A stretch of DNA of 63,520 nt, the filler included. It is 5 parts of 5 records of this genome, joined end to end, with 100 filler letters (N's around TTAATTAATTAA, not from the genome) between each part and the next. Parts side by side here need not be neighbours in the genome. Positions count along the whole stretch, not along the records: positions 1 to 16,292 come from SRR31156797_12728; 4 more parts are not named here. One strand, 5' to 3'. A program made the translations under genes and the position numbers. Under the pieces are notes generated by a model. That model was not told the DNA's origin and did no database searches. It saw only the letters and a list, made by a program, of their open reading frames with translations. Position 1 is the stretch's first letter. Each line of letters starts with the position of its first letter. Shown in pieces: positions 1-58,274 of this stretch.

Positions 1-54
1 TGGTGCGACCGACGAGACTTGAACTCGTACACCCGAAAGCACCACCCCCTCAAG
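1..54 (-). pseudogene. 3' half of host tRNA-Leu(GAG), from anticodon loop to CCA, separated from its 5' half by the element
   Basis: Minus strand reads CTTGAGGG GGTGG TGCTTTCGGGTGT ACGAG TTCAAGT CTCGT CGGTCGC ACCA (variable arm, T-arm, acceptor 3' strand, CCA). Sequence beyond position 55 is not tRNA-like. Confidence 0.92.
47..54 (+). repeat. att core, left junction (CCCTCAAG)
   Basis: Identical to 15897-15904; covers the 7-nt anticodon loop plus one stem base. Confidence 0.88.
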
Positions 55-93
55 TTGGAATGCTATCCCTAAAAAAGGGCTTTGTAAGCCAAC

Positions 94-129: not shown

Positions 130-1275
130 TTATGCCATACTAATTAAAGCATTAAATATATCTGCTTTATTTTTGGCTTTTTCTTGCTTGTGATTATCTT
201 CTAAACAATCTAAATTATAGTGTTCATCCGTAATTCTTGAACCTTTTGAGTGTCCTACAACTTCTTGAATATCCTCAAGTGAAACTTTATCAGATTGCCT
301 CATCATACTTACATAAGTTCTTCTCATTGCATATAATGTTTTATACTCAACTTCAATCACTTTTAAAAACGGTTTGAAGTGATAATCTGTAATAGTTTTT
401 GATTCTTTAAAAGGCTTTCCATTTTTTGAAATAAAAAGCCATTCTTTAGACATTCTAAAAGTTTTAAACCTTTTTAATAAATCAATTGTTTCAGGGAAAA
501 GGTATATTTCTCTTAAGTGATTTTTATTTTGATGAATAACTTCACTTGATTCAGTAATTACACCTTTCGAGATACTTCTATTTATTTGAAAGAAACCTCT
601 TTCTAAATCAAAATCATCCCATTTCAGACCCATAGCTTCACCTGTTCTTAGTCCATATTTAATAGATATTTCAAGAAAAATCTTTAACCATCCTTCAGAT
701 TCATTTAACATTTTTTTTACTTCTGAAACTGTGTAAGCTTGTGTTGTCTTAACAGTTTTCTTAAATTGATGCTTTTGAACAATTCTTGCTCTAACTATAT
801 TTTTTTTCATTAAGTCTTCATCATGAGCAGTTTCTAAAATATTACATAGAATATTTTTTATTCTTTTACATCTATCATAAGAATATTTTTCTGTAACTGA
901 ATTAAAAAACTCAAGTAAATTTAAAGAAGTAATATCGTTAAATTTGAACTCTTTAAAATAAGGGACTATAATTCTCTCTAAGATTCTTTCATACTCTTTT
1001 TGAGTTTGAATGCCTCTGTTATAAGAATCACTTCTTAAAACTCTAAGTCCAAAATCTTCTAAACTAAATTCATTGTTTGAATCATCTTTTATATTTAAAA
1101 TATTTAAAAGAACTTGTATAGGGTCTTGCTTTTGCATCCATTTTTTATTTAATGGAGTGGCTTTTTTACCTATACTTTTTTTGTATGTTTTTCCGTTAAT
1201 TGTACCTTGTACATAAATCGCATTAGATTCTTTTCTTATGTAAAAAGAACCATTACTACAAAATAACTTACTCAT
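130..1275 (-). CDS. Tyrosine recombinase/integrase of the element
   Basis: GLRTGEA (catalytic R), YAMRRT (HxxR variant), VGHS and HY motifs; adjacent to att. Confidence 0.93.
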   Translation of the reverse strand: MSKLFCSNGSFYIRKESNAIYVQGTINGKTYKKSIGKKATPLNKKWMQKQDPIQVLLNILNIKDDSNNEFSLEDFGLRVLRSDSYNRGIQTQKEYERILERIIVPYFKEFKFNDITSLNLLEFFNSVTEKYSYDRCKRIKNILCNILETAHDEDLMKKNIVRARIVQKHQFKKTVKTTQAYTVSEVKKMLNESEGWLKIFLEISIKYGLRTGEAMGLKWDDFDLERGFFQINRSISKGVITESSEVIHQNKNHLREIYLFPETIDLLKRFKTFRMSKEWLFISKNGKPFKESKTITDYHFKPFLKVIEVEYKTLYAMRRTYVSMMRQSDKVSLEDIQEVVGHSKGSRITDEHYNLDCLEDNHKQEKAKNKADIFNALISMA

Positions 1276-2842: not shown

Positions 2843-2851
2843 TGTTAAAAT
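2843..2851 (+). promoter_or_regulatory. Extended -10 promoter (TGnTAAAAT) for the kinase operon
   Basis: TGTTAAAAT about 30 nt upstream of ATG 2881. Confidence 0.45.
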
Positions 2852-2880
2852 ATCATTTACTATTATAAAAGTGAGTATAA

Positions 2881-4449
2881 ATGGAAGTAAATATAATAAA
2901 GAAATTATCAGATTATTTAAAAAATAATGATTCTATTGAGAATAGTTTAGGAAAGTTTATCTTAGGAAAGCAGCTGGGACAAGGTGGTACATCAGTAGTT
3001 AGAGAGGCGACTTTGAATGAAAAAGCATCATATGCAATTAAGTTTTTAACTGAAAATATAATATCAAAAGAATCAAAGGCTTATCTTCGATTTAAGCAAT
3101 CATATATAAATATACTTTCAATTCAGGATACAGGGGTAGTTCTTCCTCAAATTTATTTTGATAATATAAAAATAGATGAATATACTGTAATTCCTTATTC
3201 TATAATGTTAAAAGCTGATAAAACTTTAAAAGATGTTGTACATGAAAAAGAAATGAGTTATGAAAGATTTGAGAAAATATTTAATTACTTAGTACATATA
3301 ATAGGGACAATCCATAAGTATAATATTATTCATAGAGATTTAAAACCTGAGAATATATTTTTAATTAATAATAAACTAGTTCTAGGAGATTTTGATATTG
3401 CAAAGTTTAATGATACAGAGCACATTAAATTTCACGAAACAAAAAGTAATGAACGACTTGCAAACTATCAGTTCTCCGCACCTGAACAGTCAGTAAAAAA
3501 GTTTGAAGAAATTGATGAAAGGGCAGATTTATTTGCATTAGGACAAATTTTATACTGGCTTGTAACAAAAACAACTCTTAGAGGACAAGAATCAATTAAT
3601 TTAAAAGGCTATGATACTAGATATAGAAAGTATGAGGAATTAATTACTAAGCTATTACAAAATGAAAGGGATTTAAGGTTTTTAAATGTTGGAGAAATAG
3701 AACAGTTTTTAAAACAAAAAGATAGACATAGGCAAGAACAAGAAGAGATTTCTAAATCTTTTAAAACTTTAAGATTATTTGATGAAATAATTGATAAATA
3801 TGCACATGACAAAAGTTATCGAAGTTTTAAAAAAATTGAAAGTATAGATATAATTAATGAAATAATGACTGATTTATCAAGCCAGTTTAAAGAGATGAGA
3901 TTATGGTGGAGCCAAGGAACAAGAGATAACGAAATAGAGAAAATTGAAAAGTATGTGTCTTTATCTTTAAAGGAAAAAGTGATTGATAATTGTATAAAAA
4001 ATACAAAATGGATAGTTGATTGTTTTGAATTTTCAATAAAAAGTATTTGGATATATAAATATGGTGATGTTGGTGCAAGTACAATAATTATTGAAACGGA
4101 ACCACTTAAAACTTTTGGCATTTATGATGGAAAATATGATTCAGAGGAAGTTGCGATATTTAAAAATAAGTATATTTCAAGAAGACATTACGACAACGGT
4201 TGGACTGAAATAAAAGGAAAAAAAGTTAGAATAGATTCGCCTTGTGAAATAAGAGTTAGACACTTATATAGTGATTTGTTCTTTATATCTCCTTATGATG
4301 GGTCAATAATTTCTAATGACCAAACAAGAACAGAATTAATTCTTTTAGATATTTATAATCAACATAAAAAAGGTACAACTTTAGATGAAAATTTACTTGC
4401 ACCAATAAAAGAGTTTAGAAGAAAATCAAAAATTGCATTATGGAGTTAA
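2881..4449 (+). CDS. Hanks-type Ser/Thr protein kinase with an uncharacterised C-terminal domain
   Basis: LGQGGTSVV, YAIK, HRDLKPEN, DFD (for DFG), SAPEQ and ADLFALG motifs. Confidence 0.93.
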   Translation: MEVNIIKKLSDYLKNNDSIENSLGKFILGKQLGQGGTSVVREATLNEKASYAIKFLTENIISKESKAYLRFKQSYINILSIQDTGVVLPQIYFDNIKIDEYTVIPYSIMLKADKTLKDVVHEKEMSYERFEKIFNYLVHIIGTIHKYNIIHRDLKPENIFLINNKLVLGDFDIAKFNDTEHIKFHETKSNERLANYQFSAPEQSVKKFEEIDERADLFALGQILYWLVTKTTLRGQESINLKGYDTRYRKYEELITKLLQNERDLRFLNVGEIEQFLKQKDRHRQEQEEISKSFKTLRLFDEIIDKYAHDKSYRSFKKIESIDIINEIMTDLSSQFKEMRLWWSQGTRDNEIEKIEKYVSLSLKEKVIDNCIKNTKWIVDCFEFSIKSIWIYKYGDVGASTIIIETEPLKTFGIYDGKYDSEEVAIFKNKYISRRHYDNGWTEIKGKKVRIDSPCEIRVRHLYSDLFFISPYDGSIISNDQTRTELILLDIYNQHKKGTTLDENLLAPIKEFRRKSKIALWS

Positions 4450-4450
4450 A

Positions 4451-5725
4451 ATGAAAAAAGCTTTTTTAATTGGTGCAGGTTTCTCTTATGATTTAGGTAT
4501 GCCATTAGCATTTGAATTGACTGAAACTTTTTTAAGTTTGTTTACTAAAAGAAGTGTTGAAACTTTCTGTAATGTTCTTTCAATGAATAACCCTTATGGA
4601 AATGAAAGACCTATTAATAAAACTGCTCTTAAAGAAGCACTTACAATGCTTCTAGAGTATAAAGAGAACAATGGAAATAATTATGAAGAGATTTTGTCAA
4701 ACATACAAGATTTAAGAAATAATCATGAAAAAACTTTATCTGACAAAGATTCATACAGTTATGTATTTTCTATTATGTATGATATTATTTGGCAAATACT
4801 ATACTTGTATCAAGTTAAATCTTATGAATTAATTTATGAAAAAAATAAAGAATTTTATAGAAAGATTGAAGATTTATTTGGAGAAGAAGAGTGTTGGATA
4901 TTTTCATTAAATCATGATTTATATGTTGAATTATTAGCATTAGATTTTAAAATACCCATTTCTTATGGAGATACTGATTCTATAATATTCCCTTTAAATA
5001 ATATAGATAAAAACACAAAGATAAATTTTAGCTATACCCTTAATGATAATTTCTTTAAAGAAAAAATGAATTTCCATAAAAAAAACAAAAGTATTAATCT
5101 CGTGAAGTTACATGGTGGTTTAGGAGAGTTTGAATATAAAGACAAAAAGTTACAATGTAATTTAAGTCTAGATAATAGAGAATCTTCTTTTGAGTTAATA
5201 AATGATTTTAAAAACTATAACAATATGGCATATTATCACAATGGAGTTAAAGTACCTAGTGGAAAAGATAGAGTAGTTACTAATAGTTTAGGAGAATTAG
5301 ACATTATTGTAAAATCAATGCTAACTGGTGGAAATAAGTATAGTAAAACATCAAATGAAAAAAAGGGTGAAGAAAAGCTTAAAATTTTTAGTGATATTTT
5401 AACAGAAATTGATGAATTAACTGTAATAGGATATGGTTTTGGAGATAATCATATTAACTTTAGATTATCAAATGCAATGGTTTTAAATCCTAATTTATCA
5501 ATCAGCATAATTGAACCTATGAACATTAATACCCCTGATATTTTAAATCAATTTGATTATGACAATAGAGTAAAAAAGGCAATGTGTACAGCTACACAAT
5601 GGTTTAATTACTATAAAGAAAAAACTTGGAATCAAGATTTAAATAAATCAATTATAGATAATAATGAGCTTAGAAATAAGATAAAAAGTGAAGTATTAAA
5701 TTCCTTGTATAAATTGAATAGATAG
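4451..5725 (+). CDS. SIR2-like (SIR2_2 type) protein, putative NADase effector
   Basis: FLIGAGFS, SLNHD, KLHGG and IGYGFGDNHIN motifs; ATG lies 1 nt after the kinase stop. Confidence 0.88.
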   Translation: MKKAFLIGAGFSYDLGMPLAFELTETFLSLFTKRSVETFCNVLSMNNPYGNERPINKTALKEALTMLLEYKENNGNNYEEILSNIQDLRNNHEKTLSDKDSYSYVFSIMYDIIWQILYLYQVKSYELIYEKNKEFYRKIEDLFGEEECWIFSLNHDLYVELLALDFKIPISYGDTDSIIFPLNNIDKNTKINFSYTLNDNFFKEKMNFHKKNKSINLVKLHGGLGEFEYKDKKLQCNLSLDNRESSFELINDFKNYNNMAYYHNGVKVPSGKDRVVTNSLGELDIIVKSMLTGGNKYSKTSNEKKGEEKLKIFSDILTEIDELTVIGYGFGDNHINFRLSNAMVLNPNLSISIIEPMNINTPDILNQFDYDNRVKKAMCTATQWFNYYKEKTWNQDLNKSIIDNNELRNKIKSEVLNSLYKLNR

Positions 5726-5735
5726 AAAGGCTTTT

Positions 5736-7100
5736 ATGAAAACACCAACTATACCAAATGTGACTAATTTACAAAATGGTGAGATAATAAAATCTATAGA
5801 TTTTTTTAGTATGGATGAAGAGTCTATATTTAAAATTAGAACAGAGAATGAAAAGTACTTACAGAAAGATATAAAGTTTTTAGTATGTTCTCTTTGTCAT
5901 CAATCAGTAAAAATACGGGGTGGTATCGATAAGTCAAAGAGCTTACATTTTTCACATCTTCATAGTTCAGGAGATTGTCCAATTAAAACTGGACAATCTT
6001 ATACTACGGAAGAAATCAATGCAATGAAATATAATGGGGCGAAAGAAAGTGAAGAACATAAAAAATTAAAAAACTTTATCTATGAAATGCTTTCAAAGGA
6101 CAATAATTTTTCTAATACTGAAATAGAAAAAACATTTAAAAATACAGGTCTTCAAAAGAATTGGAAACGACCAGATGTTTCTACTAACTTTAAAGGTCAG
6201 AATATTGTTTTTGAAATACAATTATCAACTACTTTTCTAGATGTGATTGTAAGTAGGCAAAATTTCTATTATGCTAATAATACTAATATCGTATGGGTTT
6301 TTAATAAATTTCCAAAAGATTTATCTAAATTAAGATTTACAGAAAAAGATATTTTGTACTCAAATAAGAATAATGTTTTTGTTCTTGATGATGAAATGAT
6401 TGAGAAGTCTATAAAAGCTAATGCACTTATTTTTAAGTGCTATTATATGAAGATAAATCCTGAAAAAAGTAAAGGAAGTAAAATAGAAACTTCATGGGAA
6501 CATGAAGAGGTTAATGTAGTTGATATAACCTATGATGAAATTACAAATAAAAGCTATATCTACAATTATGACTCAGCAAAAGCAAGACTATTGTTTGAAA
6601 AGAAATTGAAGAAAATAAACCCTATGTATTCATTAATATTAGATGGTATTAAAGAGATTGAATTAGAAGGTCGAAGATACGATTGGAATTTATCTAATGT
6701 ATTAGACTCAACTTATTTTGATTATTTTGACCCATTTTCCTTAGAGGAACTTGTAGATGCACAAGAACTAATAGGCTTTTTATTGACTATTCTTTTTTAT
6801 GGTAGAAAACAGGAACGAGACTATGAATCAAGGTATCGAAGTTCAGATGGATATTTCATTAGGCTATTAAATCACATGATAGATTATAGAAAAGAGCATA
6901 TGGATATTTTATTAAGAGCTATTGATACATATGACAAGAGATTGATGATTCTTAACAATGATAAAAAAGGTAAGTTTAGAGAAAGACTTATTGAATATAA
7001 AAAAGATACACCCATACAGTCAAACAAGCATGATAAAGTATTGCAGTTTTTATTTCCTGAGCTTTTTTATAATATGGGGATACCTATAGTAAAAAAATAA
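5736..7100 (+). CDS. CoiA/DUF6035-like Zn-ribbon PD-(D/E)XK nuclease
   Basis: CSLC...HFSH...CP zinc motif; ESEEH; RPDV...FEIQLS nuclease core. Confidence 0.8.
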   Translation: MKTPTIPNVTNLQNGEIIKSIDFFSMDEESIFKIRTENEKYLQKDIKFLVCSLCHQSVKIRGGIDKSKSLHFSHLHSSGDCPIKTGQSYTTEEINAMKYNGAKESEEHKKLKNFIYEMLSKDNNFSNTEIEKTFKNTGLQKNWKRPDVSTNFKGQNIVFEIQLSTTFLDVIVSRQNFYYANNTNIVWVFNKFPKDLSKLRFTEKDILYSNKNNVFVLDDEMIEKSIKANALIFKCYYMKINPEKSKGSKIETSWEHEEVNVVDITYDEITNKSYIYNYDSAKARLLFEKKLKKINPMYSLILDGIKEIELEGRRYDWNLSNVLDSTYFDYFDPFSLEELVDAQELIGFLLTILFYGRKQERDYESRYRSSDGYFIRLLNHMIDYRKEHMDILLRAIDTYDKRLMILNNDKKGKFRERLIEYKKDTPIQSNKHDKVLQFLFPELFYNMGIPIVKK

Positions 7101-7119
7101 TTACTACAAGATTTAGCTT

Positions 7120-7155
7120 AAAGCAATATGAAATTTACAAACATATTGCTTTTTC
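7120..7155 (+). terminator. Intrinsic terminator closing the kinase-SIR2-nuclease operon
   Basis: AAAGCAATATG...CATATTGCTTT 11-bp stem ending in a T run. Confidence 0.55.
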
Positions 7156-7399
7156 TCTCAATAATGGAATGGAAATAATTCTAGCTACTTATAACAAGGT
7201 ATGAAAGCTTTACGAAGCTATAACTTTTAAAACAGGAGCTACGAATGAATACACTAACAGAAGTGCTACAAACTTGTAGCAACTTATGACAATTCTTAAT
7301 ACAAAATCTTTTTTGATAATACAAAGCTAAAAGTATTATTCCAAAAAGAAATATGAGTGGCATCATATTTTTGTATTACTGAATTGAGACCCCGAGGGA

Positions 7400-7443
7400 G
7401 CTTCCATCTCTATTGCATATTTTCTGCAATAGAGATTGGAAGC
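7400..7443. other. Long inverted repeat, candidate oriT or recombination site
   Basis: GCTTCCATCTCTATTGCA-tattttc-TGCAATAGAGATTGGAAGC (18-bp stem with one bulge). Confidence 0.45.
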
Positions 7444-7766
7444 AATACAAAAATCACAGATGTGAAAAGATATATCGAAGAAATGGGCATTTAGCGATGT
7501 CCATTTTTGATATTTTTTGTATAAAAATACTCTAAAAACTGACAACTGCTTGAATAATTAACTACTGCCAAAAAACTTACTGCTAAAGTTAATATCAAGT
7601 CATTTTATTTCTACTTATTACTTGCTACTATGACACTTGTCATTGCCTTTTGACATTTCGTAATATTGTCCATAAAAAAATTACAGGTCTAAACCTCAGT
7701 CAAGAAATAAACAAATTTACAAACTCTTTCAGGGGTTGAATTAATTCAACATTAGGAGTTTAGAAA

Positions 7767-8129
7767 ATGTTTACACAAAAGAAAAAAGCATATTATGCAA
7801 AAATACTAGGATTTAAAAATATAGAAGATTTTGAAACTTTTTCTAAAAGATATTCAAAATTTTTAGAGAAACAAACCATTACAAAAAATAGAGTTATGAG
7901 TGGGTTTTTTATTTTAGTAGAGATTCAAAAAGAAGCTCTTAAAAATAAATCGTTAATCAACTTTGATAATATCAAAAATCAACACATCAAAAAATATGCA
8001 GATACTATTTTAGAACTTAGAAAAAATGGAAATGGTAGTTTATCAATATCAAAGTACCTCTATGAAAATCATAGAGTTAAAATCTCAAGAGGTACTATTG
8101 AGAAGTTTTATAAAAATAATGGGTTATAA
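7767..8129 (+). CDS. Basic protein with a C-terminal HTH-like segment
   Basis: RBS AGGAG; SLSISKYLYENHRVKISRGTIEKFY; coupled to the next gene. Confidence 0.7.
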   Translation: MFTQKKKAYYAKILGFKNIEDFETFSKRYSKFLEKQTITKNRVMSGFFILVEIQKEALKNKSLINFDNIKNQHIKKYADTILELRKNGNGSLSISKYLYENHRVKISRGTIEKFYKNNGL

Positions 8130-8133
8130 GATT

Positions 8134-8994
8134 ATGGCAAATTTAAAAGGTGGTACATTTGAAAAGCAGATTAAAGATGCTTTTCATAGATTAGAAGCTT
8201 TTAAAATTGGTAGAGTTGGGAAAAATGATAACCTTACTCACTCTGATAAACTTGCAGAAAAAAGAGAAATGTATTTAAGGGATATTAAAAACTACTTTGA
8301 AAGCAATAACCTAGAAGGAAAATTAAATTCTCTTCTCACAAAAGAAAACCTCAATAACTTTTTTAATGAAAGATTTGAAAACCTATCAACTACATCCCAA
8401 GAGAATTATTTAAGAGGTGTTTCTTCAATGTTAAAAGGCTTAGAACAGAAAAACATTTATATACCTTTACATCTTGAAGATAAAAACTATTTTGATGATA
8501 AAGTAGCTCAAATAAAAGACCAGGCTGAAATAATTATTGAAAATAGATACATTAATAATGTAGATTCTGTAATCTCAAATTTATATGAAGATAGAACTAT
8601 AACAGGACTTATCGCACAAGTTCAATATGAGTTATCAATAAGACAATCAGAAGCCTTTGAATTAATAAAAAATCCAAGTATATATATAGATAATGGAATT
8701 GTAAGTAACCTTATAGGGAAAGGTAATCATATGTATGAACCTAAAGAAATATCTTTTGAGCTTGAACAAAAGATTTTAAATAATACGGAAAATTTAATTG
8801 ATAAATCAACATATTATAAAGATTTACAAAAATATGATATTAGTTCACATGACTTTAGATTTACTGCTGCAAGAGACAAATTTGAAGAGAAAGTTAATAA
8901 TGGAATTTCTGAAAAAGAAGCAAAACTTCAAGTTAGTTCAGAACTTAATCATAAACGGGAAGCAATAACAAATTATTATTTAGAAAGAACCTAA
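8134..8994 (+). CDS. Second tyrosine-recombinase-family protein (resolvase or atypical relaxase)
   Basis: SIRQSEA, GKG, SHDFR, LNH and NYY give a full R-K-HxxR-H-Y set; start taken as MANLKGG. Confidence 0.8.
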   Translation: MANLKGGTFEKQIKDAFHRLEAFKIGRVGKNDNLTHSDKLAEKREMYLRDIKNYFESNNLEGKLNSLLTKENLNNFFNERFENLSTTSQENYLRGVSSMLKGLEQKNIYIPLHLEDKNYFDDKVAQIKDQAEIIIENRYINNVDSVISNLYEDRTITGLIAQVQYELSIRQSEAFELIKNPSIYIDNGIVSNLIGKGNHMYEPKEISFELEQKILNNTENLIDKSTYYKDLQKYDISSHDFRFTAARDKFEEKVNNGISEKEAKLQVSSELNHKREAITNYYLERT

Positions 8995-9005
8995 AAAAGA
9001 GAGTT

Positions 9006-10001
9006 TTACTCTCTCTTTTCTACTATAAAATTAAATTCTTCATGGGAAATACCACCTACAGAAACATGTAAATCAAAGTCTAAATTTAAATTATTAAAAG
9101 CTCTTTCAATATCTGCATTATCTATTTCCATATGGAAAGGTATTGACCAAACTAAGTATCCAGTAAAATTATCTTGATTCTCAGGTCTTTGTGATTTATT
9201 AATTAGTTTTGTTATATGTCCATTGTTTTCTATAAATAAGTCATTAATTAAAGTGTCAACATTTACTACCTCATTAATTGCCATACTTTCAATTTCTCTA
9301 GCTACTTGATTTATATCTCTACTTCTAGTAATTCCTGTAAGAGTTGATATAGAGATAAATTCTCCATCAAAAGAATCTTCTTTTCTTTCAATAAATTTAT
9401 CAATTTCTTTTAATATTTCTTTTAAATTGCTATATGTTAAATTTTCTACCTTAAGAGTTATTTTAAATATTTTATTTCGTAAAAAAGAATTTTCATTTAA
9501 TAGACTGTAAGCATCTAAATAGTCATATAATCTAGACATCCCAATATCATTAGATTCTTTAAATTTTACTTCAAAATTATGAACTTGACTATCCTTTTGC
9601 AATTTTAAATCACAAGAACCTTCTTCTCTTTCAAATTCTGCAACAGTATACCCTTTCTTTGATAAGTCTAGGTAAGTAAGAAATTCAACAAAAATAGAAT
9701 GAAGTTTTCGAGAAAGGTTTATTCCCTTTTCTCCTCTTATTTCATCAAATGCATCTTTAACTAAATCAATAGGAAGGAAATCATATTTACTTGGTAATAA
9801 CTCTTCTCCATATAAAATATTAAAAACTAAGTTTTTTGATAGTCCATTTAATAAGCTCTTTTCTTTTTCCTCAATTATATTTCCAACTAAAGCATGTGCA
9901 ATAATTTTATCTTTATCATTTAACTCTGATTCATCAATATTAAATTGTTCAATTTTTTCTACCCAATCATCAGGTAAAACTCTATTTTGTATCATTCTCA
10001 T
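9006..10001 (-). CDS. Hypothetical protein with a PD-(D/E)XK-like motif
   Basis: E...GSCDLKL...NFEVK pattern; RBS AAGGA. Confidence 0.6.
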   Translation of the reverse strand: MRMIQNRVLPDDWVEKIEQFNIDESELNDKDKIIAHALVGNIIEEKEKSLLNGLSKNLVFNILYGEELLPSKYDFLPIDLVKDAFDEIRGEKGINLSRKLHSIFVEFLTYLDLSKKGYTVAEFEREEGSCDLKLQKDSQVHNFEVKFKESNDIGMSRLYDYLDAYSLLNENSFLRNKIFKITLKVENLTYSNLKEILKEIDKFIERKEDSFDGEFISISTLTGITRSRDINQVAREIESMAINEVVNVDTLINDLFIENNGHITKLINKSQRPENQDNFTGYLVWSIPFHMEIDNADIERAFNNLNLDFDLHVSVGGISHEEFNFIVEKRE

Positions 10002-10151
10002 GGCTATCCTTTTTTATTGATGTAAGATTATATATCGTAATTCATTATAAAGATATTTCAAATAAATTAATTTTAACCTAAAAAGGTATACCTTTCCAGA
10101 TCCAAAGTGTATACCAAAAAGATTACACAAAAGAAATTTTAAAATTTTTTA

Positions 10152-10172
10152 TTTTTGGGCTTAATTAATTTT
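10152..10172 (+). repeat. 21-bp element, inverted copy of 12966-12986, upstream of a -10-like box
   Basis: TTTTTGGGCTTAATTAATTTT is the exact reverse complement of 12966-12986. Confidence 0.75.
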
Positions 10173-10219
10173 TAAATCTATGTCAAAATATATACATAAT
10201 TAAAACAAAGGAGCATATT

Positions 10220-10390
10220 ATGAAAATAGAAAAAAAAGAGTTAAGAGATGCAGCAGTTACAACAAAGCTTACAAAATCTCAAAAGGAAAAAATAGAAGAG
10301 TTATCAAAAGAGTATGATATAACAAGGTCAAATTTGTTAGCACAGCTTATTATGGAGGGATATAAACAAGCTACATCAAAAGAGTTATAG
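10220..10390 (+). CDS. Ribbon-helix-helix (CopG-like) protein, 56 aa, absent from the ORF track
   Basis: RBS AAGGAG; MKIEKKELRDAAVTTKLTKSQKEKIEELSKEYDITRSNLLAQLIMEGYKQATSKEL. Confidence 0.75.
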   Translation: MKIEKKELRDAAVTTKLTKSQKEKIEELSKEYDITRSNLLAQLIMEGYKQATSKEL

Positions 10391-10420
10391 CTAGATAACT
10401 ACTAGCTATTCTTTTATATT

Positions 10421-11269
10421 TTATGTTAATTGCCATTCCATATTTTCAAGTTTTGCACTATATATTCTTTCAATAAAACCAAGTTTTTCATAAAATTCAA
10501 TCAAATCTTTATTATCAAAATATTTATCTAAGAAATTGAATAGTCTGACAAATTCTTTAGCTCTTAATTCATTCTCTTTATTTGGAGCTTCGAATGTATG
10601 ATAAATAAAATCTAAACTGTTAATTGAAATCCCAAAACCACAACCTGAATTATCACAACAATAACATTCTCCTAAACTATGTCTATTTTCAGATATACAC
10701 CATTTACAAGCTCCTTCTCCTCCATAAGAAGAACAGTCTTCTAATGATACATATCCTCCTCCATATTCAGGACATGTGATTATTGATAATGAATCAGCCA
10801 TAGTTGCTCCACAAAAAGGACAACTACCATTTGAATAAAATTCAAGAAAACTTTCACTTACAGGTTCTATTTCTTGATTTGATTGTTGAGCGATTTTTAA
10901 TAATGATTGATATAATATTAAAGAACTTGTAAATTTATCTGTCTCAAATAAAACACTAGATTCACCTTCTTTTATTTTTTTAGGTTTATATAGATTTTGT
11001 GAACCAATAATAATTGTATTATCAATTAAATATATTTTGCCATGATAAAAGTCTTTATCAATTTTTATGCATTTTTCAGATGGAACAAAGTTACTATCAT
11101 TTCTTGATAAAAAGTAATAGAAAACATTTTCTGGAATAATTGATTTATAATGAATATAATCACTTCTTCCCCAATATGCAGAAGCTAAGAATACTCTTTC
11201 TTTTGCATTTTTAATTAAATCATCTAAAATATCCCAGAATTCACTACCATAAATCATTTTTATTTTCAT
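10421..11269 (-). CDS. Phospholipase D-family (HKD) nuclease with a Cys-rich C-terminal domain
   Basis: YHGKIYLID...IGSQN motif; CPFC, CKWC and CYCC clusters. Confidence 0.8.
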   Translation of the reverse strand: MKIKMIYGSEFWDILDDLIKNAKERVFLASAYWGRSDYIHYKSIIPENVFYYFLSRNDSNFVPSEKCIKIDKDFYHGKIYLIDNTIIIGSQNLYKPKKIKEGESSVLFETDKFTSSLILYQSLLKIAQQSNQEIEPVSESFLEFYSNGSCPFCGATMADSLSIITCPEYGGGYVSLEDCSSYGGEGACKWCISENRHSLGECYCCDNSGCGFGISINSLDFIYHTFEAPNKENELRAKEFVRLFNFLDKYFDNKDLIEFYEKLGFIERIYSAKLENMEWQLT

Positions 11270-11322
11270 AATATTACTTTCTTATTTAAAATACTAGAGT
11301 TTATCGTATAAAATATAAAAAA

Positions 11323-11457
11323 TTAATCTTCATCATCACTAAATAAGTACCACCAAAATATCCACCATTTTAATTCTTCATCTTCTGAATTTAAAAACCA
11401 ATTCCAAATAATCAAATAAAAAACTGACAATCCAATAGTCACAATTAATAATTCCAT
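11323..11457 (-). CDS. Small Trp-rich membrane peptide, 44 aa, absent from the ORF track
   Basis: MELLIVTIGLSVFYLIIWNWFLNSEDEELKWWIFWWYLFSDDED; RBS AAGG; fills the gap between two co-directional genes. Confidence 0.55.
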   Translation of the reverse strand: MELLIVTIGLSVFYLIIWNWFLNSEDEELKWWIFWWYLFSDDED

Positions 11458-11486
11458 TTTAAAGCCTTTATAGAGTAGCTAGTAAA

Positions 11487-11954
11487 TTAACTAGCTATTT
11501 TCCTTTTATTTTCTTTTTTCAAAGTCTCACAGCCATATTTAGCCTTTATATCGTCCATAGATTTTTGCTTTGGATTTCTGCCTTTCATTTCTCCGTAGTA
11601 CCACATCTTTTTTTTAGAAGCCCATTTAAAACCAAGCTCTTTTAATTTTTCTTTGATTTCTTTAGTATCTCCACTAACCCATATCCAAGAACCAACAAGC
11701 TCGATAGTAATATTTTCAAAGTGTAAAATAAGACTTATGATTTTTTCTAACTCTATATCTATTTTAATATCATTAGAGAAATAGATTTTATGCTCTATTA
11801 AATCAGTATAAACACTATTTAAAGTCTTAAACTCTTCTTCACTACCTCCAATGTCAGGATGAAGCTTTTTAGCTAATTTCTTATAGATTTTCTTTGCTTC
11901 ATTGATACCCTCAATACCTCTAAATTCATTTTGAATTTCTTCTTTTGTCATCAT
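11487..11954 (-). CDS. J-domain (DnaJ-like) protein of the mobile-element type
   Basis: YKKLAKKLHPDIGG (HPD motif); C-terminal GSWIWVSGDT...LGFKWASKKKMWY domain. Confidence 0.85.
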   Translation of the reverse strand: MMTKEEIQNEFRGIEGINEAKKIYKKLAKKLHPDIGGSEEEFKTLNSVYTDLIEHKIYFSNDIKIDIELEKIISLILHFENITIELVGSWIWVSGDTKEIKEKLKELGFKWASKKKMWYYGEMKGRNPKQKSMDDIKAKYGCETLKKENKRKIAS

Positions 11955-12008
11955 CTTAAATCCTTAAAATTGTTTTTGCCTTTTTGAAGATTCAGAGGGT
12001 TTGTTTTT

Positions 12009-15776: not shown

Positions 15777-15864
15777 TGGTGCGACTGAAAAGACTCGAAC
15801 TTTCAAGCTCATATCGAGCAGCAGGCCCTCAACCTACCGTGTTTACCAATTTCACCACAGTCGC
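15777..15864 (-). tRNA. Element-encoded complete tRNA-Leu(GAG), 88 nt
   Basis: GCGACTG/CAGTCGC acceptor, D-loop AAATTGGTA, GTAGG-TTGAGGG-CCTGC anticodon arm, GCTC/GAGC variable arm, GTTCGAGTC T-loop, encoded CCA. Confidence 0.93.
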
Positions 15865-15896: not shown

Positions 15897-15935
15897 CCCT
15901 CAAGATGGCGTGTCTACCAATTTCACCACGGTCGC
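15897..15935 (-). pseudogene. 5' half of host tRNA-Leu(GAG), including the right att core 15897-15904
   Basis: GCGACCGTGGTGAAATTGGTAGACACGCCATCTTGAGGG, then non-tRNA sequence; pairs with the stems in 1-54. Confidence 0.92.
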
Positions 15936-15951
15936 AATTTTAAAGAGCGAA

Positions 15952-16292: not shown

Positions 16293-16392
16293 NNNNNNNN
16301 NNNNNNNNNNNNNNNNNNNNNNNNNNNNNNNNNNNNTTAATTAATTAANNNNNNNNNNNNNNNNNNNNNNNNNNNNNNNNNNNNNNNNNNNN
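16293..16392. other. Artificial contig spacer
   Basis: N44-TTAATTAATTAA-N44 with an abrupt GC shift across it. Confidence 0.97.
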
Positions 16393-16731
16393 TTCGCCGC
16401 AGGCCGGAAACTGAACAACCTGATGGTAATAGTGGATTTTAATAAATGGCAGGCCACGGGGCGGAGTTGTGAAATCACGGCCCTGGAATCACTGTCCGAA
16501 AAGTGGAAAGCTTTCGGGTGGCAGGCCTATGAAACCGATGGCCACAATATGGGAGAACTGTTGGAAGTCCTGTCTAAATTTCCCGATGAATCCGGTCGGC
16601 CGGTTGCAATTGTCGCCCACACCATAAAGGGTAAGGGCGCTTCGTTTATGGAAGATGACAACAACTGGCACTACCGCATCCCTGACAGCGCGGAAGTGCT
16701 CAGGGCAAAGGAAGAATTGGGTCTGCTATGA
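16393..16731 (+). CDS. Transketolase N-terminal (TPP-binding) subunit, 5'-truncated
   Basis: VIVDFNKWQA, AFGW, DGHN, AHTIKGKG and WHY motifs. Confidence 0.88.
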   Translation, partial: FAAGRKLNNLMVIVDFNKWQATGRSCEITALESLSEKWKAFGWQAYETDGHNMGELLEVLSKFPDESGRPVAIVAHTIKGKGASFMEDDNNWHYRIPDSAEVLRAKEELGLL

Positions 16732-17723
16732 GAAACGCTTTTGCATCCGAAGTAACCAATTTGGCCGGCCTTCACGACAACCTGGTGCTGCTGGCCGGAG
16801 ATATCGGCAACAGGCTTTTTAACGGATTCAAGGATTTATACCCGGACAGGTTTTTCAATTGCGGCGTGGCCGAAGGATCCATGACCGGCGTGGCCGCGGG
16901 AATGGCCATGTGCGGTCTCAGACCGGTGACTTACACCATAACCCCATTCAATACATACCGGTGTCTCGAACAGATCAGGGTGGACCTTTGCTATCACAAC
17001 CTGCCCGTGGTTATTATCGGCACGGGATCCGGACTTTCATACGCCGGCCTCGGCGCCACTCACCATTCCTGCGAGGATATCGCCATGATGAGAGTGCTGC
17101 CCAATATGACGGTTGTGTGCCCCGGGGATTCGGTGGAAGTCAGGCTCGCCCTCCGGGCCGCCCTGTGCGCGGACGGGCCTGTGTACATCAGGTTGGGCAA
17201 GAAAAACGAGCCTGTCATCCATGAAACCGAGCCCGAATTTGAAATCGGGCGCGGAATAGAGATCATGGACGGAAATGAAGTCTGCATACTCAGCACCGGC
17301 AACATGCTGCCTGTTGCAGTGGATGTAGGAAATCAGCTTGAAAAAGCCGGCATCTCCTGCCGTGTTGTCAGCATGCACACTGTCAAGCCCCTGGATGTGG
17401 ACTATTTGGATGATGTGTTTTCCAGGTTCAGAATCGTGGCCGCATTGGAAGAACACAGCATCCTGGGCGGCTTTGGCGCCGCAATAGCCGAATGGCTGAC
17501 CGACCGGGAAGGCCTTGGCGCCCGTTTGCTGCGCTTCGGAACAACCGACCGGTTTCTTTCAGCACTGGGCGCCCAGGCGAATGCACGCGAGAAGATGAAT
17601 TTGACAGCAGATCATATTTCAAGCCGCATCCAGGAAGCCCTGGCCTTGCAGTTCCAGGAAACACTCGGTAAACCGACTGAATTAAACTTGATTGGAGAAT
17701 CGGGTTTTGCGAATTGGAGTTGA
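16728..17723 (+). CDS. Transketolase C-terminal (pyrimidine-binding) subunit
   Basis: FFNCGVAE, GATHHSCED, GPVYIRL and LEEH motifs. Confidence 0.9.
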   Translation: MRNAFASEVTNLAGLHDNLVLLAGDIGNRLFNGFKDLYPDRFFNCGVAEGSMTGVAAGMAMCGLRPVTYTITPFNTYRCLEQIRVDLCYHNLPVVIIGTGSGLSYAGLGATHHSCEDIAMMRVLPNMTVVCPGDSVEVRLALRAALCADGPVYIRLGKKNEPVIHETEPEFEIGRGIEIMDGNEVCILSTGNMLPVAVDVGNQLEKAGISCRVVSMHTVKPLDVDYLDDVFSRFRIVAALEEHSILGGFGAAIAEWLTDREGLGARLLRFGTTDRFLSALGAQANAREKMNLTADHISSRIQEALALQFQETLGKPTELNLIGESGFANWS

Positions 17724-36217: not shown

Positions 36218-36317
36218 NNNNNNNNNNNNNNNNNNNNNNNNNNNNNNNNNNNNNNNNNNNNTTAATTAATTAANNNNNNNNNNNNNNNNNNNNNNNNNNN
36301 NNNNNNNNNNNNNNNNN
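36218..36317. other. Artificial contig spacer
   Basis: N44-TTAATTAATTAA-N44. Confidence 0.97.
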
Positions 36318-48341: not shown

Positions 48342-48441
48342 NNNNNNNNNNNNNNNNNNNNNNNNNNNNNNNNNNNNNNNNNNNNTTAATTAATTAANNN
48401 NNNNNNNNNNNNNNNNNNNNNNNNNNNNNNNNNNNNNNNNN
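48342..48441. other. Artificial contig spacer
   Basis: N44-TTAATTAATTAA-N44. Confidence 0.97.
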
Positions 48442-58174: not shown

Positions 58175-58274
58175 NNNNNNNNNNNNNNNNNNNNNNNNNN
58201 NNNNNNNNNNNNNNNNNNTTAATTAATTAANNNNNNNNNNNNNNNNNNNNNNNNNNNNNNNNNNNNNNNNNNNN
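58175..58274. other. Artificial contig spacer
   Basis: N44-TTAATTAATTAA-N44 with a GC jump across it. Confidence 0.97.

What the first reader, a model, noticed from the sequence alone, without database searches (positions are those of the whole stretch)
2843..7155. Ser/Thr kinase - SIR2 - CoiA-like nuclease operon: candidate undescribed anti-phage system
Seen: three co-directional genes with 1-nt and 10-nt gaps, one extended -10 promoter in front and one terminator behind, carried as island cargo. Established: SIR2 domains are NAD+-depleting effectors in Thoeris, DSR, SIR2-HerA and short-Argonaute systems; Hanks kinases act in abortive infection (Stk2) and in Pgl/BREX type 2 (PglW); PD-(D/E)XK nucleases are common effectors. 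No TIR, HerA or Argonaute partner is present here. Inference: a phosphorylation-gated system in which the kinase C-terminal domain senses infection and switches the NADase and/or nuclease. The three could also be independent stacked cassettes.
Basis: partly seen in the sequence, partly recalled or inferred. Interest (0 to 1): 0.75.

Follow-up and report, generated by a model that had tools for sequence, protein, structure and literature searches.

The report
Three stacked single-gene phage-defence candidates
Three tightly packed genes (a protein kinase, a SIR2-type NAD-cleaving enzyme and a CoiA-like nuclease) are real and probably share one transcript, but their relatives elsewhere always occur alone, so this looks like three independent candidate anti-phage genes stacked on a mobile island, not one three-part machine.

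Summary
Genes at 2881-4449, 4451-5725 and 5736-7100 lie on one strand with gaps of 1 and 10 nt, and a hairpin follows.

The domain calls hold:
- an intact Hanks-type kinase with an unnamed C-terminal domain;
- a 424-aa SIR2-fold protein closest to the SIR2 of SIR2-HerA, with no HerA nearby;
- a zinc-ribbon + DUF6035/CoiA-nuclease + DUF7829 protein with PD..ExQ conserved.

- 0 of 80 SIR2-family loci carry the nuclease, and none has an adjacent kinase.
- 0 of 8 nuclease loci carry a kinase or SIR2.
- 0 of 4 kinase relatives have either partner.
- No genome among 184 Arcobacteraceae holds two of the three.
- One 40.8-kb contig of a relative has the nuclease and its right flank without kinase or SIR2.

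Each family sits alone in variable, defence-rich neighbourhoods.

The kinase's C-terminal domain also occurs fused to TIR, CHAT, deaminase and SMEK domains. That marks the kinase as a self-contained effector-plus-sensor protein.

The trio lies on a 16.3-kb, 26%-GC contig, an integrase island splitting a tRNA-Leu gene. The rest of the window is other contigs joined by N linkers.

The parts
2843..2851 (+). TGTTAAAAT, an extended -10-like motif 30 nt upstream of the kinase ATG; a candidate promoter for the three genes
   Evidence: Read directly. The motif is not enriched over chance, so its position is the only support.
2881..4449 (+). Ser/Thr protein kinase, 522 aa: a Hanks-type kinase domain (residues about 1-285), a long linker helix, and a conserved C-terminal domain
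   Evidence: Pfam Pkinase 76 bits against a cut-off of 31.7. PADLOC PD-T4-6 E 4.7e-31 and Stk2 E 2.6e-26, both over the kinase domain only. The G-loop, K54, HRD151-153, DFD170-172 and APE motifs are invariant in 28 sequences. Model pLDDT 89.9. Residues 1-285 match PknB, DYRK and others at Z about 24.
3778..4446 (+). C-terminal domain of the kinase (residues 300-522): an unnamed alpha/beta module, proposed to be a sensor or regulatory domain
   Evidence: No Pfam, PADLOC or Atlas hit. 133 relatives at E<=1e-3 among 1.84 billion representatives. Of 47 scanned, 10 carry Pkinase, 10 TIR, 1 CHAT, 1 cytidine deaminase, 1 SMEK_N and 24 nothing at the N-terminus. It aligns over about 220 residues with F301, E383, Y431, G440, R458, R460 and L462 invariant.
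4451..5725 (+). Stand-alone SIR2-fold protein, 424 aa; a predicted NAD+ hydrolase
   Evidence: No Pfam hit. PADLOC 'SIR2' models reach E 1.3e-11. GAGFS, N154 (LNHD) and H221 (KLHGG) are invariant in 24 sequences. Model pLDDT 89.5. The best folds are SIR2 of SIR2-HerA (8sub, 8j4u, 8uae): E 5e-12, TM about 0.5, 17-18% identity. The profile aligns LNHD to TTNYD and KLHGG to KLHGS of 8j4u_A, E 1.4e-5.
5736..7100 (+). DUF7830 (zinc ribbon) + DUF6035/CoiA-like PD-(D/E)xK nuclease + DUF7829 protein, 454 aa
   Evidence: Pfam scores against cut-offs: PF25169 71.5 vs 27.5, PF19500 57.8 vs 22.6, PF25167 40.6 vs 28.6, PF06054 40.7 vs 20.3. C51, C54, H74, C81, E104, H108, K112, P146, D147, E160 and Q162 are invariant in 25 sequences. 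No PADLOC or NCBIfam hit.
7120..7152 (+). Hairpin with an 11-bp stem and 11-nt loop, followed by UUCUCUC; the likely terminator of the unit
   Evidence: -10.4 kcal/mol, z -2.92, 0 of 200 shuffles as stable.
130..1275 (-). Tyrosine integrase at the left end of the island
   Evidence: Pfam Phage_integrase E 2.1e-12, 47.6 bits against a cut-off of 27.1.
1..56 (-). 3' half of a tRNA, from the CCA end to the anticodon-loop core CCCTCAAG; proposed island boundary
   Evidence: Read and aligned. Its acceptor strand GGTCGCA pairs with the 5' strand TGCGACC of the fragment at 15897-15936.
15777..15864 (-). Complete tRNA-Leu(GAG), lying just inside the right end of the island
   Evidence: ARAGORN.
15897..15936 (-). 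5' half of a tRNA that ends at the same CCCTCAAG core; proposed partner of the 3' half at 1-56
   Evidence: Repeat D1, sequence, alignment.

Best explanation
These are three functionally independent, single-gene candidate anti-phage modules. They have been stacked head to tail, and are probably co-transcribed, in the variable cargo region of a roughly 15.8-kb integrase island inserted into a tRNA-Leu gene of an Arcobacter-like (26% GC) bacterium.

(1) The kinase is a self-contained effector-plus-sensor protein. Its conserved C-terminal domain would detect infection or control activation. Its Hanks-type kinase domain would be the effector that phosphorylates cell or phage proteins to abort infection, as proposed for Stk2 and PD-T4-6.

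(2) The SIR2 protein is a HerA-independent relative of the SIR2-HerA NADase. It would deplete NAD+ when triggered.

(3) The DUF6035 protein is a zinc-ribbon plus CoiA-like PD..ExQ nuclease that would cut invading DNA.

Shown here: the gene structure, the domains, intact catalytic motifs, independent distribution of the three families, and defence-rich neighbourhoods of their relatives. Inferred: co-transcription, the anti-phage role, the triggers and all biochemical activities.
For: Independence, seen from the SIR2 side. Of the best 80 of 116 genomic loci, 0 carry the nuclease and 1 has an unrelated kinase-domain match 6 kb away. No neighbour family recurs in more than 6 of the 80 loci.

Independence, seen from the nuclease side. 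Five plasmid loci, chosen from 27 plasmid records with a match, and 3 of 3 viral-contig loci show no kinase or SIR2.

Independence, seen from the kinase side. Four relatives were found: 2 of 184 genomes, 1 of 401 and 1 of 251. None has SIR2 or the nuclease nearby. The three genomes searched whole also lack both.

Across 184 Arcobacteraceae genomes, the kinase is in 2, the SIR2 family in 3 and the nuclease in 0, and no genome has two of them.

A 40.8-kb contig in run X4 matches window 5734-8981 with 155 differences, then 10081-10375 and 11330-11998. Left of 5734, which is 2 nt before the nuclease ATG, about 10 kb of that contig has no listed match to the window.

Defence context. Neighbours of SIR2 relatives hit PADLOC models in 15 of 19 loci. 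Named systems (RM types I and II, Thoeris, a DRT-type reverse transcriptase, IetAS, AbiJ, SoFic, PD-T4-10B, PD-T7-4/MADS) appear in 9 of the 19. Nuclease relatives lie beside type I RM, PIN, HipA, PLD, Gabija-like, AbiE and AbiJ genes. One kinase relative is nested between hsdR and hsdM of a type I RM operon; another follows a ThsB-like TIR gene and a caspase-like gene.

Kinase self-sufficiency. Its C-terminal domain recurs behind TIR, CHAT, deaminase and SMEK_N domains.

Catalytic residues are intact in all three proteins.
Against: The 1-nt and 10-nt gaps, the single plausible promoter and the single terminator argue for co-expression. Translational coupling of kinase and SIR2 is possible, which is unusual for unrelated cassettes.

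The same arrangement is kept at 90-99% identity in contigs of at least two other runs from other studies: X2 bridges both junctions and X3 bridges the kinase-SIR2 junction. It is also kept on a 6256-bp contig that carries all three proteins at 97-99%. So the stack is stable within this lineage.

Sampling is thin for the kinase (4 relatives, one cut by a contig end, one with an internal stop) and for the nuclease (8 loci). The nearest relatives could not be examined in context: kinase 87%, nuclease 86%, SIR2 67%. The metagenome scan for kinase loci returned only generic kinases.

Two contig-length coincidences between hit lists could not be resolved directly: 3575 bp for kinase P0270 and nuclease P0170, and 3078 bp for kinase P0289 and SIR2 P0042. 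Their sources differ, and for the first pair the amino-acid composition differs too.

No PADLOC background rate was measured. None of the three families has an experimental anti-phage result that I saw.
Confidence: 0.68

Rival explanations
1. One integrated three-gene system. The kinase senses infection through its C-terminal domain and switches on the SIR2 NADase and/or the nuclease by phosphorylation.
For: Gaps of 1 nt and 10 nt, one plausible promoter and one terminator. The arrangement is conserved in related strains. The SIR2 lacks the HerA partner that its closest structural relatives use, so it needs some other activator.
Against: No co-occurrence of any pair outside this lineage. A relative keeps the nuclease without the other two. 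The SIR2 family is 45-67% identical across many phyla and stands alone there, so it evidently works without this kinase. The kinase's C-terminal domain pairs with alternative effector domains within one polypeptide, which makes the kinase an effector and not a relay.
Confidence: 0.08
2. A two-gene kinase+SIR2 module was inserted upstream of an independent resident nuclease gene.
For: The X4 contig's similarity to the window starts at 5734, inside the 10-nt spacer. So kinase and SIR2 are present or absent together relative to the nuclease and its right flank. The kinase-SIR2 gap is only 1 nt.
Against: 0 of 80 SIR2 loci have an adjacent kinase of this family. 0 of 4 kinase relatives have a SIR2. 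The left boundary of the X4 difference is unknown, so the two genes may have arrived separately.
Confidence: 0.1
3. The genes are not immune genes. The kinase would be an ordinary signalling kinase, the SIR2 a deacylase and the CoiA-like protein a competence or recombination factor, carried passively on the island.
For: No experimental defence data exist for any of the three families. My literature search found DUF6035 in 1 paper, which is unrelated. CoiA proper is a competence protein (recalled). One kinase relative sits between recG and an iron ABC transporter.
Against: All three families are patchy and rare: kinase 2 of 184 genomes, SIR2 family 3 of 184, nuclease 0 of 184. They are carried on an island, on plasmids and occasionally on viral contigs. 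Their neighbourhoods are defence-rich. The SIR2 is closest to an anti-phage NADase and not to deacetylases: E 5e-12 against 4e-5 for SIRT2. The C-terminal domain is shared with TIR and CHAT immune-type effectors.
Confidence: 0.12

Closest known systems
PD-T4-6 (E. coli single-gene Ser/Thr kinase defence, Vassallo et al. 2022) and Stk2 (staphylococcal abortive-infection kinase, Depardieu et al. 2016)
   Same: A single polypeptide with a Hanks-type kinase domain. PADLOC PD-T4-6 models match at E 4.7e-31 and Stk2 at 2.6e-26. It is found alone in defence-type contexts. [quoted passage not shown] The system names and the Stk2 mechanism are recalled.
   Different: The matches cover only the kinase domain: residues 23-239, or 31-315 for Stk2. 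The 220-residue C-terminal domain has no PADLOC model. The same domain is shared with TIR, CHAT, deaminase and SMEK fusions.
SIR2-HerA (Nezha) anti-phage system
   Same: The SIR2 fold is the best structural match: 8sub, 8j4u and 8uae at E 5e-12 to 1e-11 and TM about 0.5 over the whole chain. The TTNYD-type Asn, KLHG His and GFGDxHIN motifs align. PADLOC 'SIR2' models match weakly.
   Different: No HerA gene is present here or beside any of the 80 relatives as a recurrent neighbour. Identity is only 17-18%. NCBIfam SIR2_antiphage scores 32 bits against a cut-off of 500.
CoiA competence nuclease, and the CoiA-domain defence protein reported in Vassallo et al. 2022
   Same: CoiA_nuc PF06054 matches at 40.7 bits against a cut-off of 20.3. 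The PD..ExQ core is conserved. Passages of PMC9519451 report a CoiA domain in a validated E. coli defence system.
   Different: The better match is DUF6035, flanked by DUF7830 and DUF7829. No PADLOC model matches, and PADLOC holds the PD-* systems. So this protein is not a close relative of that E. coli protein.
Single-protein immune sensors with swappable effector domains (the general principle seen in Avs/STAND, CBASS effectors and short-pAgo partners)
   Same: One conserved C-terminal module is combined with kinase, TIR, CHAT, deaminase or SMEK N-terminal domains. The N-terminal domains match ThsB-type TIR, SAVED-CHAT and pAgo-associated REase models.
   Different: No NTPase, SAVED or Argonaute domain is present. 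The shared module has no family name in Pfam or PADLOC. Its fold was not searched on its own.
CapK/CapS, a kinase-repressor pair upstream of immune operons (PMC13373217, abstract only)
   Same: A kinase gene sits upstream of immune effector genes.
   Different: CapK is an anti-sigma-factor-type kinase with a STAS-domain substrate (abstract). Here the kinase is Hanks-type, no CapS-like gene was seen, and relatives of this kinase do not sit upstream of operons.

Membership tests
Pfam PF00069 Pkinase / Hanks-type kinases | Profile score above the gathering threshold, with the catalytic motifs present (G-loop, VAIK Lys, HRD, DFG-like, APE) | tested here: met
   76 bits against 31.7. GxGGTS, K54, H151-R-D153, D170-F-D and S-A-P-E are invariant or nearly so in 28 sequences. 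Fold Z about 24 to PknB and others.
PD-T4-6 / Stk2 single-gene kinase defence | Full-length similarity to the validated proteins | tested here: inconclusive
   PADLOC HMMs match at E 4.7e-31 and 2.6e-26, but only over the kinase domain. The library gives no curated cut-off. The C-terminal domain is unmatched.
SIR2-HerA (Nezha) | SIR2 protein with the SIR2-HerA-type fold and catalytic Asn/His | tested here: met
   Foldseek E 5e-12, TM about 0.5. Motifs align.
SIR2-HerA (Nezha) | An adjacent HerA ATPase gene | tested here: not met
   No HerA-like domain among the contig's ORFs that were scanned. No recurrent neighbour in 80 loci.
Thoeris | A ThsB TIR gene next to a SIR2-SLOG ThsA | tested here: not met
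   No TIR or SLOG hit in the trio or its neighbours. No ThsA model in the PADLOC list for the SIR2.
NCBIfam NF042942 SIR2_antiphage | Score at or above the curated cut-off of 500 bits | tested here: not met
   32.2 bits.
BREX type 2 (PglW) / MADS (MAD6) | An equivalog-level match and the partner genes | tested here: not met
   PglW 32 bits against 990; MAD6 77 bits against 460. No BREX or MADS partners on the contig.
Pfam PF19500 DUF6035, with PF25169 DUF7830, PF25167 DUF7829 and PF06054 CoiA_nuc | Profile scores above the gathering thresholds, in the same domain order as the family | tested here: met
   57.8 vs 22.6, 71.5 vs 27.5, 40.6 vs 28.6 and 40.7 vs 20.3. The same architecture is precomputed for most of the 120 listed relatives.
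   0 of 80, 0 of 8 and 0 of 4 loci. No genome of 184 holds two of them. The X4 contig has the nuclease alone.

The most novel reading that the evidence does not exclude
In this lineage three normally autonomous immune genes have been welded into one operon and have acquired cross-talk. The kinase, switched on through its swappable C-terminal sensor domain, would phosphorylate and gate the HerA-less SIR2 NADase and/or the DUF6035 nuclease. One sensor would then fire three different effector activities.
Probability: 0.08. Interest if true: 0.75.

Novelty: new variant of a known kind. Interest (0 to 1): 0.4.

Why it matters
As a three-part system the finding does not hold, so it should not be counted as a new multi-gene defence system. 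Three smaller leads remain, each cheap to test.

(a) An unnamed domain of about 220 residues is shared by kinase, TIR, CHAT, deaminase and SMEK fusion proteins. It behaves like a common sensor of single-protein immune effectors.

(b) A well-conserved SIR2 family (45-67% identity across many phyla) is related to the SIR2-HerA NADase but always lacks HerA. This raises the question of how it is activated.

(c) DUF6035 proteins, absent from PADLOC and from the literature I could search, repeatedly sit among known defence genes.

The locus also shows gene-sized cassettes being swapped in and out of a small tRNA-targeting island.

Tried and rejected
- The metagenome scan with the kinase alignment chose generic kinase motifs and returned 79 loci of unrelated kinases (at most 30% identity, kinase domain only).
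- The genome search for the window's own genome: none is held. I worked from the genome of locus L001 instead.
- The C-terminal domain gave no hit in the protein Atlas or in Pfam at E<=10.
- The structural search of the full kinase model was filled by kinase-domain matches, so the C-terminal domain's fold remains untested.
- No RNA holder was listed for the stretch, so there is nothing on expression.
- No direct repeat of the tRNA-Leu(GAG) 3' end occurs elsewhere: 1 match, the gene itself.
- CapK/CapS was considered as a model for a kinase upstream of immune genes. I rejected it as a homologue because the kinase class differs.
- Earlier notes of this scan held nothing on this place or these sequences. 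One unrelated SIR2-nucleoside-kinase note came up.
- Shared contig lengths between hit lists were checked as a cheap co-occurrence test. Only 6256 bp is shared by all three lists. The 1966-bp and 2369-bp coincidences are too short to hold both genes. The 3078-bp and 3575-bp coincidences stay unresolved but have differing sources.

Full report
**Observation**

Three ORFs lie on the + strand at 2881-4449, 4451-5725 and 5736-7100.
- The SIR2 ORF's listed TTG at 4433 is not the start. Homologues begin at the ATG at 4451 (MKKAFLIGAGFS, against the consensus MKKGLLLGAGFS).
- That leaves a 1-nt gap after the kinase stop codon. The SIR2-nuclease gap is 10 nt.
- A TGTTAAAAT motif sits at 2843-2851. It is no rarer than chance: 8 matches against 5.6 +/- 2.2 expected. 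The general promoter scan is uninformative in this AT-rich DNA.
- A hairpin at 7120-7152 folds at -10.4 kcal/mol, z -2.9.
- All three ORFs are real genes with hundreds of full-length homologues.

**Context correction**

The window is not one piece of genome.
- N44-TTAATTAATTAA-N44 linkers at 16293-16392, 36218-36317, 48342-48441 and 58175-58274 join five contigs. Their GC contents are 26.3, 50.0, 47.9, 53.3 and 63.5%.
- The trio's contig is 1-16292.
- Named best hits for the kinase and the SIR2 come from Arcobacter and Aliarcobacter. This fits the 26% GC.

On that contig the island structure reads as follows.
- Positions 1-56 are the 3' half of a tRNA, directly next to a tyrosine integrase at 130-1275.
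- A complete tRNA-Leu(GAG) lies at 15777-15864.
- A tRNA 5' half lies at 15897-15936. Its acceptor strand pairs with the 3' half at 1-56.
- All three tRNA pieces share the core CCCTCAA.

My reading is an island of about 15.8 kb inserted into the anticodon loop of a tRNA-Leu gene and carrying its own tRNA-Leu copy. This is inferred from the sequence only.

**What the genes are**

*Kinase (522 aa)*
- Pfam Pkinase scores 76 bits against a cut-off of 31.7.
- All Hanks catalytic motifs are invariant in 28 relatives.
- The model has pLDDT 89.9. Residues 1-285 match PknB and other kinases at Z about 24.
- PADLOC PD-T4-6 and Stk2 models match the kinase domain only.
- Residues 300-522 form a conserved domain with no Pfam, PADLOC or Atlas match.

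*SIR2 (424 aa)*
- It has no Pfam hit.
- GAGFS, N154 and H221 are invariant.
- The model has pLDDT 89.5.
- Its best folds are the SIR2 subunits of SIR2-HerA, at E 5e-12, TM about 0.5 and 17-18% identity. Sirtuin deacetylases follow far behind, at E about 4e-5.
- The profile aligns its catalytic motifs with 8j4u_A.

*Nuclease (454 aa)*
- It has DUF7830, DUF6035/CoiA_nuc and DUF7829, all above their Pfam cut-offs.
- A Cys/His cluster is invariant, and so is P146-D147...E160-x-Q162.

**Is the trio a system?**

*From the SIR2 side.* 116 genomic loci were found and the best 80 were kept.
- 0 of 80 encode the nuclease within 7 kb.
- 1 of 80 has a kinase-domain match 6 kb away, at 27% identity.
- Clustering all neighbours found no family present in more than 6 of the 80 loci.

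*From the nuclease side.* 27 plasmid records hold a relative.
- In the 5 plasmid loci examined the gene stands alone.
- The 3 viral-contig loci likewise lack a kinase or SIR2.

*From the kinase side.* The full-length family is rare.
- It occurs in 2 of 184 Arcobacteraceae genomes, 1 of 401 in a class-wide sample (with an internal stop), and 1 of 251 in a second family.
- None of the four loci has SIR2 or the nuclease.
- The three genomes searched whole lack both.
- Two SIR2-bearing genomes lack the kinase and the nuclease.

*Presence and absence in 184 Arcobacteraceae genomes.* The kinase is in 2, the SIR2 family in 3 and the nuclease in 0. They never occur together.

*Only this lineage has the trio.*
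- One 6256-bp contig carries all three proteins at 97-99%.
- Contigs of runs X2 and X3, from other studies, bridge the gene junctions.
- Run X6 holds pieces of all three genes.

*The X4 contig.*
- It is 40.8 kb and matches window 5734-8981 (155 differences), 10081-10375 and 11330-11998.
- About 10 kb of it lies beyond position 5734, and no listed piece of it matches the kinase or SIR2. So the nuclease and its right flank exist without kinase and SIR2.
- The same contig also lacks the ORFs at 9006-10001 and 10421-11269. That points to gene-sized cassette turnover.

**Are the genes immune genes?**
- Neighbours of SIR2 relatives: I scanned 146 of the 185 ORFs of at least 120 aa within 5 kb, in loci L001-L019.
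  - They hit PADLOC models at E<=1e-8 in 15 of 19 loci.
  - Components of named systems appear in 9 of the 19.
  - No background rate was measured.
- Nuclease relatives lie beside type I RM, PIN, HipA, PLD, SbcCD-like, AbiE, AbiJ and Gabija-like genes.
- Kinase relatives sit in four different settings:
  - inside a type I RM operon (hsdR-kinase-hsdM-hsdS), after a MutS-HNH gene;
  - after a ThsB-like TIR gene and a caspase-like gene;
  - after a split DUF6414 gene and before an IS110 element;
  - between recG and an ABC transporter.
- Passages of Vassallo et al. 2022 (PMC9519451) list a Ser/Thr kinase, a Sir2 homologue and a CoiA domain among validated E. coli defence systems. The nuclease here matches no PADLOC model.
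- DUF6035 appears in one paper of the searched library, in an unrelated context.

**The kinase's C-terminal domain**

I searched residues 300-522 against 1.84 billion representative proteins.
- This gave 133 hits at E<=1e-3, of which 36 were at E<=1e-10.
- I scanned 47 hits of non-standard length against Pfam:

| N-terminal domain | Proteins |
|---|---|
| Pkinase | 10 |
| TIR | 10 |
| CHAT | 1 (E 9.7e-13) |
| Cytidine deaminase | 1 |
| SMEK_N | 1 |
| No Pfam domain | 24 |

- The shared domain aligns over about 220 residues. F301, E383, Y431, G440, R458, R460 and L462 are invariant.
- PADLOC matches only the N-terminal effector parts of these proteins: ThsB-type TIR, SAVED-CHAT and pAgo-associated REase models.
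- One module combined with alternative immune effectors argues that it is the sensing or regulatory part. It also argues that the kinase domain is this protein's own effector and not a relay to the downstream genes. The sensor role is an inference.

**Mechanism proposed**

Three autonomous layers would be expressed from one promoter:
- kinase-mediated abortive infection, triggered through the C-terminal domain;
- NAD+ depletion by a HerA-independent SIR2;
- DNA cleavage by the zinc-ribbon/CoiA-like nuclease.

What I showed is the gene structure, the intact motifs, the independent distribution and the context. Co-transcription, the triggers and all activities are inferred.

**Verdict**

This is a stack of three uncharacterised single-gene defence candidates on a tRNA-Leu island. 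It is a new variant of known kinds and of moderate interest. That interest lies mainly in the unnamed swappable C-terminal domain, the HerA-less SIR2 family and DUF6035 as a candidate defence nuclease.

Noticed in passing
window 16293-16392, 36218-36317, 48342-48441, 58175-58274: N44-TTAATTAATTAA-N44 linkers show that the window is a concatenation of five contigs. Their GC contents are very different (26%, 50%, 48%, 53%, 64%). The record may mix organisms, so context must not be read across the linkers.
   Followed up: partly
window 1-56, 15777-15864, 15897-15936: A tRNA gene appears to be split at its anticodon loop (core CCCTCAAG) by a roughly 15.8-kb integrase island. The 3' half lies next to the integrase and the 5' half at the far end, and their acceptor strands are complementary. 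The island carries its own intact tRNA-Leu(GAG) 32 nt from the junction.
   Followed up: partly
window 8982-10080 and 10376-11329: In the 40.8-kb contig of run X4 the ORF at 9006-10001 (331 aa, no family) and the weak PLD-like ORF at 10421-11269 are precisely missing. The first is replaced by 11 letters and the second by 46. These are gene-sized cassette indels in the same island.
   Followed up: no
L178:6725-13780 (genome G640): A 609-aa homologue of the kinase, with a roughly 100-residue N-terminal extension, is nested between hsdR and hsdM of a type I restriction-modification operon. A MutS-HNH fusion gene lies upstream of that operon.
   Followed up: partly
L053, L059, L060 (distant SIR2 clade, about 25% identity): In these three loci the SIR2 homologue is flanked by conserved genes of 526-711 aa and 935-964 aa. 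This may be a separate multi-gene SIR2 system. It was not examined.
   Followed up: no
L084:2276-4405 (genome G020): A ThsB-like TIR gene, a caspase-like (Peptidase_C14) gene and a 259-aa gene with no family lie directly upstream of a 69%-identical kinase homologue at a contig end.
   Followed up: no
window 16423-17723: On the neighbouring 50%-GC contig the transketolase is split into separate N-terminal-fragment and pyrimidine-binding/C-terminal ORFs. Phosphotransferase, FkbM methyltransferase and B12-radical-SAM genes follow. This is unrelated to the finding.
   Followed up: no
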